From assembly GCA_951406725.2 (NCBI GenBank), contig OX597825.1:60202001-60266000 (forward strand): 64,000 nt of DNA, given 5' to 3'. Position 1 is the first letter of the stretch. Each line of letters opens with the position of its first letter. The stretch comes from Octopus vulgaris (Eukaryota). The position numbers and the translations under genes were made by a program. This document shows, one piece after another, positions 19,436 through 23,900 of the stretch. Below the pieces are notes generated by a model. The model did not search any database. It had not been told where the DNA came from and saw only the letters and a program-made list of their open reading frames with translations.

Positions 19436-20349
19436 GTTTAAATATTTGTTGTGCAAGATTTTTTATGTGAAGTCGTGTGTTGAAACAGATATTGTTATAT
19501 TTCGGAATGGTCATATTGCCAGTTTAGCCAATAAAAACACACGCACTATATATTTGGTGTTATTTTGCTTCAGTGATATTTATTTTTTACATTAATCTTA
19601 ATCTTATTTCGGCCAAAGTTCTTTCGTCACACTCCTGTGACCGCATCAGTGGTCCTTTGTTTTCTTCTCACTTACTTGTGTCTCTCCTTACTAACCGTCA
19701 GCCATTTTGTATTTCTATTGTATGTCTTCATTTGCGCATGCTTATATCTCTATGTGCGTCTATGTTTATTTAGTGTGTGGGGGGGGGGATGCCTGTAATA
19801 TTTGTATCTTCTGGTTATATACATTCTTGTAATTTGTATTTTGTTTTTGTTGTTGTTGCTTTTGTTCTAATTTTATTCATGTGTTTACATCCACCCATTA
19901 TTATCATTACATATGCTTGTATGTATGTATAACAACAATATTAGTAATAATAATAATAAATCTAATCGAGAAAAAAAAAAAAAAAAAAAGAATATACATA
20001 TACATATATATATATATACATACATATACATATACATATATATATATATATATATACATATATACACACATATATACACATATACATATACATATATATA
20101 CACATATACATATATATAGATATTCATTTCTATTTCTTTAATTACCTGTGTATTTATTATGTTTGCAGGATCCACTATTGTCATATGTTGTGGTGTGCGC
20201 TATTGCTCCATTCTAGTTTTCTATTCAGGCTAGGTTTATTTTCTATTATATGTGTAGCTTCTGTAATTTGTCTAATTGTTGCATCTGTTCTATGTGTGGA
20301 CAATATCTTAATCTCTATGTTATTGATTGATCCCCCGTGTTCTTGTTCG

Positions 20350-23175
20350 ATGGAGAATAAAGTTGAATGCAACAGGATCCTTGGACAGGGAGTCAGCGGA
20401 CTTGAAACAGATAACAATACTCATAGGAACAAAAATAACGACCGCAACAGGGGGATTGACAGGGACCAACAGACAGACATAAAACCCAACACTAATATAA
20501 ACAACACATATACCAGAAACAGGAACAATGAATATATCACTAGCGATGATAGTAATAATGGCAATGGTAGGAATAAAGGTAATAACAATAATAGTGGTAG
20601 TAGTAGTGGTGATGGTAACAGTAGAAGTAGTAATGAGGATAGTAGTGATAGTTGTGGTGGTAATAGGAATACTAGTAGTAGTAGTAGTAGTGGTAATGGT
20701 GATAATAATAATAGGAAGGCTGATGTTGGAAACAGTAACGATAATGAAGATAACCCTAGAGAGACCATTGACATGTATACCCATCCCTTTGACACTCAAT
20801 TCTTCAACGTATGCGACAAAACTTACTGCATGAACCGAATTTATCCAACAACATTACCCTTCAACAAAAGGGTATACATCCCAAGACGTACTAATGACCA
20901 CATGGAAGCACAGTTCACTATAGCTAGGACCAAACTTAGACAGATTTTAGGTTTATACATTAAGAGACAGAGACAGAATAAGACAGATGCCCAACAACTA
21001 GGGATTAAACCTGCATGTGGCCTACAGAAGCTCATTCAGCGCACGAGGAACGGAGAGGTGATATGCCTTCCCACGGATAAGTCCGGCAGGATGTCAATAG
21101 ACAGCTTACCGAACTACATCCAGGCAATGCAACCTCATATCGCCAATACAAAAGTAACAACTGTACAGGCGCATGAGGAGAGAGAAAAGGTCCTCAATGC
21201 CCACATGATGATGTGGACAATTGTTCTGGGACCTCAGAAACGTACTGCAAAGAATTTCCAAGCCTGGAACAATGATATCCCGGCACTGTATGGACTTCGC
21301 AAGGACCATAAAGGTTTTACTGACCCTATAGCAGGACCACCAACAAGACCAGTCTGTGGAGCGAATATCGCTAGCAATTACAGAATCTCCTACTTCCTCT
21401 CAATGATCATACGCCCTATAATCAGGATGTCACCTGATGTATGTGACAGCACAGAAGATCTCCTAAGCAGGATCAGTGACTGTAACAAAACTTGTGACTT
21501 GACAGGATGTATAGTAGGTAGCATGGATGTGGTATCCCTATACCCATCGATTGACGTAGATTTTGCAGTGGAGAAGTGCGTGGAGATGATCAACGAGAGC
21601 CAGGTGGAGTTCTGTAATGTCGACACAGAAGAACTGGGCCTCCTACTTAGACTGACATATAATAGTGAATACTTAGATAAACATAATCTTAGTAGTTTCT
21701 GCCCCAGTAGATGTTTAAGAGGTAGACCGCCTACAATTACTTCTATGGCTAGGAAGACACATATAGAAAGATGGCGCGGATGGACCAGAGCCATACGGAG
21801 CCCCGCAAATGTCCATCAGGTAAAGAAAATGATCGCACATGCACTAGGAGCTAGTATAAGAGTTACCCTAAAAGGCCACACATTTAAATTTAATAATAAA
21901 ATATATGCCCAGGACGAGGGGGCAGCCATCGGTGTTAGTATCGCTGGTGATGTGGCCAACCTCTTCATGGTATGGTGGGACAGAAGGCTTAAAGAATGCC
22001 TACTGCAGAAATCCATACTCGTAAACATGTACTCTCGCTATGTTGATGATATCAATATAGTAGTAAAGGCACCCCCACAAGAAAGTACTGTTGATATAGT
22101 AATAGAAACTAATACTATGGAGAGCATCCAGCAAATAGCTAACTCCATCCACCAGAGTATTAAGGTCACAATAGACTACCCCACTAAACACCCCAACCAT
22201 AGACTACCAGTACTAGACACTGAACTCTGGCTAGAAATTGTGAAAAATAAAACCCAAATCCTTCATTCATACTATGCAAAACCTATGGCCTCAAAATACC
22301 TGATCCACCGGAACTCAGCCATTGCGGGCAATGCCAAATTCAATATTTTGATGGCAGACCTCATCAGAATAATGAGAAATGTGTCACGCATGTGCGAGCC
22401 TACAGAATTAAAGAGACACATACAGTATTTCATTCACCGCATGCAGTTCTCAGGTTACAGCCATAAAGAAAGGATCAGAGTATACAAAGGAGCCATGAAG
22501 AAATTTGATAATATATTATGTAATGATAGGAATGGGATTTGCCCACTCTACAGGAACAAGTCATGGAACACTATAGAAAGGACAAAAAAGAAAATAAGGA
22601 AGGCCAACTCTTGGTATGATAGCCATAAATACCAGAGTGTCATGTTCGTTGACACCACCCCTGGAGGTGAACTAGCGTACCGCTTTAGAAGGACCCTAGA
22701 TAAACTTAAACTAAGAATTAAGGTTGTTGAAAAGCCAGGCAACCCTATCAGATCTATAATTGGTAGAACCTACCCTTTTAGTAGAACTCTCTGTACGGAT
22801 AACTATTGCACTGTATGTAGATTTAGCCCACAAACGAACTGTAAAGCCAGAAATGTGGTCTATAGTATAAGATGTATAGAGGGACGATGCAGTAACAAGA
22901 CAGTAACATACGTAGGGGAAACTGCAAGAAGCATTGGTGAGCGGGTGAATGAACATTGGAGACAACTCAAGGAAGGTAAAAGCTCATCGATTCTGTACCA
23001 ACACGCCGAACAAGAACACGGGGGATCAATCAATAACATAGAGATTAAGATATTGTCCACACATAGAACAGATGCAACAATTAGACAAATTACAGAAGCT
23101 ACACATATAATAGAAAATAAACCTAGCCTGAATAGAAAACTAGAATGGAGCAATAGCGCACACCACAACATATGA
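20350..23175 (+). CDS. PLE reverse transcriptase - GIY-YIG endonuclease polyprotein (~941 aa from the ATG at 20350)
   Basis: [95 protein letters not shown]; no internal stops; 20185-20349 is antisense-derived from the inverted arm. Confidence 0.92.
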
Positions 23176-23701
23176 CAATAGTGGATCCTGCAAACATAAT
23201 AAATACACAGGTAATTAAAGAAATAGAAATGAATATCTATATATATGTATATGTGTATATATATGTATATGTATATGTGTATATATGTGTGTATATATGT
23301 ATATATATATATATATATATGTATATGTATATGTATGTATATATATATATATGTATATGTATATTCTTTTTTTTTTTTTTTTTTTTTTCTCGATTAGATT
23401 TATTATTATTATTACTAATATTGTTGTTATACATACATACAAGCATATGTAATGATAATAATGGGTGGATGTAAACACATGAATAAAATTAGAACAAAAG
23501 CAACAACAACAAAAACAAAATACAAATTACAAGAATGTATATAACCAGAAGATACAAATATTACAGGCATCCCCCCCCACACACTAAATAAACATAGACG
23601 CACATAGAGATATAAGCATGCGCAAATGAAGACATACAATAGAAATACAAAATGGCTGACGGTTAGTAAGGAGAGACACAAGTAAGTGAGAAGAAAACAA
23701 A

Positions 23702-23746
23702 GGACCACTGATGCGGTCACAGGAGTGTGACGAAAGAACTTTGGCC
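23702..23746 (+). ncRNA. Hammerhead-like motif in the pLTR of the intact PLE (mirror copy 19611-19655, -)
   Basis: ggacca-CTGATGC-G-GTCAC aggagt GTGAC-GAAA-gaac-TT-tggcc. Confidence 0.6.
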
Positions 23747-23900
23747 GAAATAAGATTAAGATTAATGTAAAAAATAAATATCACTGAAGCAAAATAACAC
23801 CAAATATATAGTGCGTGTGTTTTTATTGGCTAAACTGGCAATATGACCATTCCGAAATATAACAATATATATATATACACACATATATATATATATATAT

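What the first reader, a model, noticed from the sequence alone, without database searches (positions are those of the whole stretch)
19436..23868. Very young PLE with intact RT-GIY-YIG ORF and ~860-bp near-perfect inverted arms
Seen: an uninterrupted 941-aa ORF with the RT (YVDD) and GIY-YIG (VVY..YVGET..R..EH..E) motifs. The arms 19489-20349 and 23007-23868 differ visibly only in homopolymer lengths, and even the internal microsatellites match. The motifs [19 protein letters not shown] and a long insert after LYPSI differ from the four Neptune-like PLEs in the window. Inference: a Naiad-like clade member from a recently or currently active family.
Basis: partly seen in the sequence, partly recalled or inferred. 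Interest (0 to 1): 0.7.

Follow-up and report, generated by a model that had tools for sequence, protein, structure and literature searches.

The report
Young octopus Penelope-like retrotransposon, unnamed lineage
This is a recently inserted, likely front-truncated copy of an octopus Penelope-like jumping gene; it is not a Naiad, and its reverse transcriptase carries a conserved 70-residue insert where telomerase has its own insert, which likely marks a lineage missing from current classifications.

Summary
Confirmed: a 941-codon ORF and arms with 0 substitutions in 859 bp (two homopolymer indels). The host is likely Octopus vulgaris: 8 of 33 compared octopod gene models match at ≥99.5%.

Two corrections. 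First, it is not a Naiad: its GIY-YIG is C-terminal, whereas Naiads have it N-terminal. Second, the ORF is likely 5'-truncated at the inversion junction: it lacks the N-terminal block of full-length relatives.

Inverted arms, a 53-bp tail and (TA)n flanks are textbook PLE anatomy, and recent PLE activity in O. vulgaris is published. A fold-back artefact is unlikely.

The real point is the lineage. Motif A-to-B spacing is 128 aa here and 126-135 aa in 110 of 110 scorable proteins. It is 50-56 in Neptune-type proteins, about 60 in Nematis/Poseidon and about 107-149 in TERTs. The insert is conserved, basic and confidently folded, but has no structural match, so homology to the telomerase IFD is not shown. 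A C-terminal EN with a Nematis-type linker, CCHH and this insert fits no described clade, and nine paper searches found no description. No tree with Nematis, Poseidon, Hydra or Naiad references was possible.

The parts
18828..19435 (.). Left flanking (TA)n/(CA)n microsatellite, the likely target; no TSD can be discerned (left edge approximate)
19436..19488 (-). [quoted passage not shown]
   Evidence: a 16-nt tail motif occurs only here and at 1029-1044, against 0.01 expected by chance
19489..20349 (-). Inverted 5'-truncated copy (inverted pLTR), joined head-to-head with the long copy at 20349/20350
   Evidence: 859 of 859 aligned bases identical, two homopolymer indels
19434..19514 (-). ATG near the pLTR end with a 27-codon open frame through the tail; candidate true start of the element's ORF (same ATG at 23843 +). 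Suggestive only
   Evidence: best N-terminal match (P0081) reached by 0 of 2000 shuffles, but summed over 60 relatives by 27 of 300 shuffles; precedent
20350..23175 (+). Uninterrupted 941-aa RT-thumb-linker-GIY-YIG ORF, likely 5'-truncated
20350..20772 (+). N/S/G-rich low-complexity stretch (aa 1-141), where relatives have a short linker after their RW motif; mostly pLDDT <50
21070..22539 (+). RT core and thumb (aa 241-730): DKSG, RKDHK, motif A D393, YVDD 564-567; best fold matches are TERTs
21598..21810 (+). About 70-aa insert between motifs A and B (aa 417-487), at the IFD position; conserved E428, C451, R454, G458, P461, R474, W478; basic loop
   Evidence: no fold match with Z>=5
22792..22842 (+). 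Short CX4CX2C-X7-C linker zinc finger (Nematis-type spacing)
   Evidence: reference rows
22846..23145 (+). C-terminal GIY-YIG endonuclease with CCHH (C842, C847, H885, H890) and R865, H869, E916, N928
   Evidence: model 833-932 matches I-TevI 1ln0 with Z 10.2, rmsd 2.1, 90 aligned
23007..23868 (+). 3' end of the long copy (end of EN plus 693-bp 3' UTR with microsatellites) = direct pLTR arm
23702..23746 (+). Hammerhead-like type I motif with a non-canonical core (position 9 is C, not A); mirror image at 19611-19655 (-). Activity doubtful
   Evidence: only hits of a relaxed core scan in 64 kb; fold z -1.42, 16 of 200 shuffles as good; no Rfam hit
23869..24060 (.). Right flanking (TA)n microsatellite (right edge approximate)
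992..1186 (.). Separate, older 195-bp insertion of the same family: (TA)n + tail + 38-bp inverted end + 110-bp 3' end + (TA)n, with the same end points; 92-94% identical

Best explanation
This is a young Penelope-like retrotransposon insertion in a (TA)n microsatellite, made of a long RT-endonuclease copy and an identical inverted 3' copy with a tail, likely 5'-truncated, likely made by target-primed reverse transcription, and likely from an unnamed lineage whose RT has a telomerase-sized insert. SHOWN: the anatomy, the domain order, catalytic and zinc-finger residues matching the clade consensus, arm identity, the multi-copy octopus family, and the fixed 126-135 aa motif A-B spacing in relatives. 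INFERRED by analogy with Poseidon_Ac (Frangieh 2024) and PLE anatomy (Craig 2021, Arkhipova 2013): a full-length tandem source element elsewhere is transcribed through pLTR into the next unit. Its protein nicks AT-rich DNA with the GIY-YIG domain and primes cDNA at two internal RNA sites about 53 nt apart, one giving the right end at 23868 and one giving the tailed end at 19436. The two truncated cDNAs are joined head-to-head at 20349/20350. This copy lost the N-terminal RNA-binding region and is probably not autonomous. SPECULATIVE (about 0.35): the basic, conserved insert grips template RNA or primer DNA beside the duplex, as telomerase IFD/TRAP does, helping internal initiation or synthesis through long microsatellite tracts.
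For: Arms with 0 substitutions in 859 bp. Tail and the same end points in an independent 92-94% copy at 992-1186. 31 O. vulgaris rows among the 120 listed; 8 of 33 octopod proteins compared are ≥99.5% identical over 129-268 aa, on 7 different contig lengths. A-B spacing is 126-135 aa in 110 of 110 scorable of 121 proteins, and 117-141 in 58 of 59 scorable of 146 representatives (one scored 32 and was not examined), against 50-56 in 99 of 99 scorable of 120 Neptune-type proteins. The insert is as conserved as the C-E and thumb regions (0.50 vs 0.52 and 0.53; 9 of 71 columns ≥90%), with a positive loop in 101 of 103. CxxC-to-C spacing is 6-11 in 40 of 40 scorable of 121, against 23-25 in 56 of 56 scorable of 120 Neptune-type proteins. 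155 clusters at 50% identity have E≤1e-30. AF2 pLDDT 85.9, with TERTs as the top RT folds. All 43 of 43 relatives ≥1000 aa have 282-605 aa before DK, against 242 here, of which 140 are low-complexity.
Against: No tree with Nematis, Penelope/Poseidon, Hydra, Naiad, Coprina or Athena references: placement rests on motifs and one Neptune subset, and the EN linker is Nematis-like. No octopus protein with the N-terminal block was recovered (0 of 33), so truncation is inferred from distant relatives at 30-50% identity. The pLTR/tail start-codon test is not significant overall (27 of 300 shuffles). The hammerhead core is non-canonical, with no Rfam hit. Craig 2021 notes sporadic IFD-like regions in Coprina and doubts the IFD as a synapomorphy. 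Repbase and Arkhipova 2006 were not seen and may already hold members. No reads were available.
Confidence: 0.75

Rival explanations
1. A derived branch of Nematis (or its sister) that spread beyond nematodes and gained a lineage-specific insert; not a clade of its own.
For: The short linker has 7 residues between CxxC and the next C, as in the Nematis_Cr and Nematis_C4 rows (9 in Nematis_Pp); CCHH is present; the YVGET.R..R..EH pattern and a V.EKPG stretch resemble Nematis_Pp (read by eye).
Against: Nematis rows have no insert (A-B about 60), DKRG/DKGG, KTHK, LYTN and AMG.RL, against DKSG, KDHK, LYPS and AIG here. Craig 2021 argues ENs were exchanged between clades, so the EN is weak evidence for the RT.
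Confidence: 0.22
2. The RT descends from the IFD-bearing Naiad/Chlamys stock with the endonuclease moved to the C-terminus (the strongest form of the first reader's idea).
For: An IFD-position insert and (TA)n preference, both Naiad traits; one Chlamys row reaches about 119 aa A-B.
Against: The EN is C-terminal; DKS-G rather than DKA; no CxC in the 10 full-length N-termini displayed; motif A is D..LYPS against DF..LYT, and motif B G.AIG against GIPMG, in the printed Naiad rows; Naiad_Ovul begins with its EN.
Confidence: 0.07
3. The 941-aa ORF is the complete gene of an autonomous element in an octopus family that has replaced its N-terminus with an N-rich tract.
For: An ATG opens the frame; no octopus hit shows the N-terminal block; N-rich inserts are tolerated in A. 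vaga Penelope ORFs.
Against: The ATG lies exactly at the inversion breakpoint; the tail, which should be the unit's 5' start, is absent from the long copy; the YG..PPKF..RW block is conserved in the relatives displayed; gene models start at downstream Met residues simply because they are predictions.
Confidence: 0.12
4. The left arm is an assembly fold-back or polishing artefact.
For: Zero substitutions; long inverted repeats are hard to assemble; reads were not checked.
Against: The arm carries a 53-bp tail that the right end lacks; a diverged copy at 992-1186 has the same layout and end points; a second PLE at 13031-18817 shows the same layout with 5 substitutions in 747 bp; homopolymer lengths differ between the arms.
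Confidence: 0.04

Closest known systems
Nematis clade of PLEs (Arkhipova 2006, as shown in Craig et al. 2021, PMC8557442)
   Same: RT then C-terminal GIY-YIG; reduced CX2-5CxxC linker; CCHH
   Different: About 70-aa A-B insert absent in Nematis; DKSG/KDHK/LYPS/GAIG motifs; hosts named here are octopods and a sea cucumber, not nematodes
Naiad/Chlamys (Craig et al. 2021)
   Same: Insert at the IFD position; (TA)n targets; inverted 5'-truncated copy plus tail; no canonical hammerhead
   Different: EN is C-terminal, not N-terminal; DKS-G not DKA; no CxC seen; insert about 70 aa against about 20 (Naiad) and generally 20-40 (Chlamys)
Hydra clade (Craig et al. 2021)
   Same: C-terminal EN; KDHK and YPSI motifs; RW motif in full-length relatives; (TA)n targets; aquatic hosts
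   Different: CCHH present; CX4CX2C linker, not CxCX5C; YVDD not YRDD; canonical motif B; large insert; 1000-1200 aa proteins, against elements under 3 kb
Neptune clade (including the other PLE remnants in this window)
   Same: C-terminal EN with linker zinc finger and CCHH; microsatellite targets
   Different: 19-23.5% RT identity; linker spacing 7 vs 23-25; A-B 128 vs 50-56; separate in the tree
Poseidon_Ac (Frangieh et al. 2024, PMC11167929), the mechanistic model
   Same: pLTR, tail, AT-rich target; ORF start likely in the pLTR; AC-rich tail
   Different: Poseidon has no linker zinc finger and no insert; tail 30-40 bp against 53 bp; its hammerhead is active with protein
Telomerase TERT IFD/TRAP
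   Same: Same position between motifs A and B and similar size (about 107-149 aa A-B in TERT rows); TERTs are the best RT fold matches
   Different: No sequence or structural match of the insert itself was found; its predicted content is short helices and a basic loop

Membership tests
Penelope-like elements (EN+) | Telomerase-related RT and GIY-YIG EN in one ORF | tested here: met
   Pfam alone is weak (RVT_1 E 0.002)
Penelope-like elements (EN+) | pLTR / inverted 5'-truncated copy and optional tail | tested here: met
   tail is 53 bp, longer than the 30-40 bp
Penelope-like elements (EN+) | CCHH motif in the EN | tested here: met
   C842, C847, H885, H890; 95-100% conserved in alignment A1
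Penelope-like elements (EN+) | Hammerhead ribozyme in the pLTR | tested here: inconclusive
   core-like motif with A9 replaced by C at 23708; z -1.42; no Rfam hit
Naiad | GIY-YIG N-terminal to RT | tested here: not met
   EN at aa 833-932, after RT; C-terminal in relatives. P0321 has an extra N-terminal EN end that reads as the upstream tandem copy
Naiad | DKA motif | tested here: not met
   DKSG here; 52 DKSG, 5 DKTG, 64 unscored of 121
Naiad | CxC motif upstream of GxKF/Y | tested here: not met
   not seen in the 10 full-length relatives displayed; that region is missing from this copy
Naiad | IFD between RT3(A) and RT4(B) | tested here: met
   present, but about 70 aa rather than about 20
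Naiad | RT phylogeny within Naiad/Chlamys | not testable with these tools
   no Naiad reference proteins could be fetched
Nematis | C-terminal EN with reduced CX2-5CxxC linker | tested here: met
   spacing 7, as in two of three Nematis rows
Nematis | No IFD (canonical A-B spacing, about 60 aa) | tested here: not met
   128 aa against hand counts from Fig. S1 rows
Nematis | RT phylogeny within Nematis | not testable with these tools
   no Nematis reference proteins could be fetched
Neptune | Long linker zinc finger and canonical A-B spacing | tested here: not met
   7 vs 23-25; 128 vs 50-56
Neptune | RT groups with Neptune | tested here: inconclusive
   separated from 10 Neptune-type proteins (UFBoot 100, branch 2.8), but only one subclade of a paraphyletic group was sampled, with no outgroup
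Penelope/Poseidon | No linker zinc finger | tested here: not met
   C815, C820, C823, C831 at 99-100%
Hydra | CCHH absent; CxCX5C linker | tested here: not met
Hydra | DKT and RWK motifs | tested here: inconclusive
   DKS here; RW present in full-length relatives, together with PPKF
Hydra | No IFD; divergent RT4(B) | tested here: not met
TERT IFD/TRAP homologue | Structural likeness of the insert to the IFD | tested here: inconclusive
   module model pLDDT 89.9; best Z 3.8, none ≥5 among 48,161 chains; Foldseek none at E≤0.001

The most novel reading that the evidence does not exclude
A ninth deep PLE clade, widespread in marine eukaryotes and currently amplifying in Octopus vulgaris: a C-terminal-endonuclease PLE with a full telomerase-sized insertion in the fingers. 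It would break the published rule that only N-terminal-EN PLEs carry an IFD, and would offer a tractable living retroelement for testing where the telomerase IFD/TRAP came from and what it does.
Probability: 0.5. Interest if true: 0.72.

Novelty: new variant of a known kind. Interest (0 to 1): 0.52.

Why it matters
PLE RTs are the sister group of telomerases. Craig et al. 2021 state that canonical C-terminal-EN PLEs lack the IFD and that its role in PLEs is unknown. A broad lineage (155 clusters at E≤1e-30) with a fixed, conserved, TERT-sized insert changes that picture, whether the insert was inherited or gained independently. A young octopus family with all catalytic residues in place gives a natural source for an in vitro test with the published PLE assay. 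These proteins are nearly invisible to Pfam (0 to 3 weak hits, none at cut-off) and appear as 'hypothetical' host genes and MAG contaminants, so recognising them improves annotation. The youth and the inverted arms themselves are ordinary.

Tried and rejected
Naiad assignment: rejected on domain order and motifs. Fold-back artefact: rejected on tail asymmetry and the sister copy.

Rfam: the whole window gave only microsatellite-driven miRNA-type hits among the 150 listed of 204; the 3' UTR alone gave 0. Folds of the 3' end and tail were not better than shuffles (z 0.38, -1.04, 0.25).

Structure: a PDB sequence search with profile A1 gave only weak bacterial RT hits. The insert module had no fold match; this shows neither a new fold nor non-homology to the IFD. 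ESM Atlas: nearest clusters unnamed or generic PLE-like, taxa sparse.

Loci: the genome-contig scan gave 1 locus, a 2.7-kb MAG contig at 34% identity that is probably eukaryotic contamination; no hammerhead core was seen by eye in its short 3' end. ARAGORN found 0 genes. The cluster-member look-up could not be made, so host names are sparse.

Trees: FastTree put 46 of 46 lineage proteins on one side, but its support label (0.53) was read after re-rooting and is not used. IQ-TREE on 32 of the 66 sequences is used instead.

Literature: motif searches in the Craig supplement found RPVC, ELGLYL, PTITG and MWWD 0 times, but long sequence rows there are cut, so this is partial. Paper searches with no description of this lineage in their listings: (one search was for telomerase IFD background). 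Metagenome and viral contig collections stayed unchecked, and no eukaryotic genome or read collection was available. No complex prediction was run.
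Full report
OBSERVATION. The frame 20350-23175 (+) gives 941 aa without a stop, with all quoted motifs. The arms 19489-20349 and 23007-23868 align with 859 matches, 0 substitutions and two homopolymer indels. Both flanks are (TA)n-type microsatellite. The 53 bp at 19436-19488 are not in the right arm; they are the PLE tail. A 16-nt piece of the tail occurs only there and at 1029-1044, against 0.01 expected by chance. At 992-1186 lies a 195-bp relative, 92-94% identical, with the same tail, inverted end, 3' end and (TA)n flanks. This asymmetry and repetition argue against a fold-back artefact. 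Reads were not available.

HOST AND AGE. The best hit is an Octopus vulgaris predicted protein (P0002, 98.7% over 794 aa, with three substitutions, one deletion and a frameshift in the EN), so the window is likely from O. vulgaris or a close relative (inference). 31 of the 120 rows listed are O. vulgaris models and one is Argonauta hians; Holothuria leucospilota is the other named animal. Of 33 octopod proteins compared, 8 are ≥99.5% identical over 129-268 aa, on 7 different contig lengths; others go down to 61%. One of these could derive from this locus. Zero substitutions in 859 bp bounds arm divergence at about 0.35%. With the 0.09 = 25 My scale in Bonar 2026 that is under about 0.5 My; this is inference, and gene conversion or polishing would make the arms look younger. 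Bonar 2026 already lists 31 recently active PLE families with 336 insertions in this species, unclassified by clade. Youth is therefore not new.

THE ORF IS LIKELY TRUNCATED. The ATG is the first base after the inverted arm. All 43 relatives of ≥1000 aa in alignment A1 have 282-605 aa before the DK motif, and the ten displayed share a YG..PPKF..RW-type block. P0001 has 242 aa there, the first 140 being N/S/G-rich. A profile of that block misses P0001 and all six window frames, while three controls score E 2e-25 to 7e-50; the fourth control, which holds only the block's end, scores 0.27. Against this reading, none of the 33 octopod proteins shows the block. An ATG near the pLTR end (19514 -, 23843 +) opens a 27-codon frame through the tail and is kept in the small copy, whose frame stops after 22 codons. 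Published PLEs start their ORF in the pLTR and tail. Its likeness to relatives' N-termini is only suggestive: best pair 0 of 2000 shuffles, N-terminus the top window in 6 of 60 against 2.5 expected, summed score reached by 27 of 300 shuffles.

NOT A NAIAD. Craig et al. define Naiads by an N-terminal GIY-YIG, DKA, CxC and a roughly 20-aa IFD. Here the EN is C-terminal (model 833-932 matches I-TevI, Z 10.2) and the motif is DKSG. The EN has CCHH and a short linker finger, with spacing 7 (6-11 in 40 of 40 scorable of 121), as in Nematis rows and unlike Neptune-type proteins (23-25 in 56 of 56 scorable of 120). Hydra shares KDHK, YPSI and RW but lacks CCHH and an IFD. On 339 shared RT columns, P0001 is 27.5-58.7% identical to its own group and 19-23.5% to 20 Neptune-type proteins. 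IQ-TREE on 22 plus 10 of these separates them with UFBoot 100. That tree has only two groups and cannot place the lineage among clades.

THE INSERT. The distance from the motif A Asp to the motif B Gln is 128 aa. It is 126-135 in 110 of 110 scorable of the 121 proteins, and 117-141 in 58 of 59 scorable of 146 new representatives (one unexamined value of 32), against 50-56 in 99 of 99 scorable of 120 Neptune-type proteins. My hand counts from selected printed rows of Craig's Fig. S1 give about 57-60 for Penelope, Poseidon, Nematis and Neptune, 84 for Naiad-1_Skow, 102 and 119 for two Chlamys, and 107-149 for four TERTs. The insert (aa 417-487) is as conserved as the palm and thumb, with nine columns at ≥90% and a net positive loop in 101 of 103 sequences. 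The lineage is broad: 155 clusters at E≤1e-30, down to about 28% identity. AlphaFold2 folds the protein at pLDDT 85.9, the insert at 87-98 per ten-residue block. TERTs are the top RT matches (Foldseek E 4e-8; 7qxb Z 10.0, rmsd 4.2, 371 aligned), as expected of any PLE. The module folded alone matched nothing (best Z 3.8). So the insert is IFD-like in position and size; homology is unshown. Craig et al. note sporadic IFD-like regions in Coprina and possible independent gains.

MECHANISM. Shown: anatomy, conserved catalytic residues, multi-copy family, insert. Inferred from Poseidon_Ac, where RT starts at two internal RNA sites that bracket the tail after nicking AT-rich DNA: two cDNAs were primed at the (TA)n target, one from the pLTR end and one 53 nt further on, and were joined head-to-head after 5' truncation. 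In the small copy the two halves overlap by about 6 bp (1077-1082), compatible with microhomology joining. A hammerhead-like motif at 23702-23746 has an A9-to-C core and no Rfam support; such variants and low activity are common in PLEs. Speculative: the basic insert contacts RNA or DNA beside the duplex, as IFD/TRAP does in telomerase.

LITERATURE SEEN. PMC8557442: main text parts 1-7 of 10, supplement parts 1, 2, 53, 54, 57, 58 of 59, and term searches (long sequence rows are cut; figures, including the Fig. 8 tree and its reference set, are not held). PMC11167929: parts 1-2 of 4. bioRxiv 10.64898/2026.07.22.740005: parts 2-3 of 5; it lists eight clades; its supplements are closed. PMC3846280, PMC13282606, PMC4209133, PMC12920920, PMC6515669: passages only. 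Arkhipova 2006 and Repbase: not seen. Searches listed no paper describing a C-terminal-EN PLE with such an insert; most subscription papers are outside the library.

VERDICT. A real, young, likely truncated PLE insertion with ordinary anatomy, from a lineage that fails a defining test for each described EN+ clade examined. New variant of a known kind; probability about 0.5 that it is an undescribed clade; interest 0.52.

Noticed in passing
window 992-1186: Minimal older insertion of the same family (tail + 38-bp inverted end + 110-bp 3' end in (TA)n), 92-94% identical; its two halves overlap by about 6 bp at the junction.
   Followed up: yes
window 13031-18817: Second PLE with inverted arms (13031-13781 and 18043-18791; 742 matches, 5 substitutions, 4 gap blocks), an apparent 26-bp tail on the right, a Neptune-type thumb+EN frame at about 13800-14817 (+) and an opposed Neptune-type EN fragment at 16081-16803 (-), possibly nested. 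It ends where the microsatellite flanking the studied element begins.
   Followed up: partly
P0002 (O. vulgaris gene model); window 23245-23266: Its first 7 residues fit a spliced first exon whose DNA pattern occurs in this window only in the element's 3' UTR, hinting that P0002 comes from a tandem copy with a direct upstream pLTR. Weak, since the pattern is microsatellite-like.
   Followed up: partly
P0321 (unnamed, 1517 aa): A lineage member whose frame begins with the end of an EN and then runs into a second unit: a partial tandem read in frame, not an N-terminal-EN element.
   Followed up: partly
window 20350-20772: Asparagine/serine-rich trinucleotide-repeat expansion inside the ORF; recalls the N-rich inserts of Adineta vaga Penelope ORFs. 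One repeat unit differs in P0002.
   Followed up: partly
window 19966-20349: The frame is also open upstream through the inverted arm (1069 codons stop to stop), with no Met near its start; probably chance.
   Followed up: no
window 29634-31000 (-) and 53546-55315 (+): Two further decayed Neptune-type PLEs.
   Followed up: partly
window 59909-61438 (-); 34255-34764 (-): A non-LTR-type RT fragment (RVT_1, E 4e-32) and a Tc1-type transposase fragment (HTH_Tnp_Tc3_2, E 1.9e-6).
   Followed up: no
window 371-598, 6651-6811, 7160-7358, 24917-25127, 26278-26880, 41930-42143, 43469-43952, 44969-45198, 62757-62975: A dispersed 150-230-bp repeat family at 70-90% identity, partly in tandem; SINE- or minisatellite-like; ARAGORN finds no tRNA.
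   Followed up: no
window 2474-3304: 42-bp tandem array of about 20 units.
   Followed up: no
L001:38-2286 and P0105: Lineage members sit in bacterial MAG records on short contigs, most likely eukaryotic contamination.
   Followed up: partly
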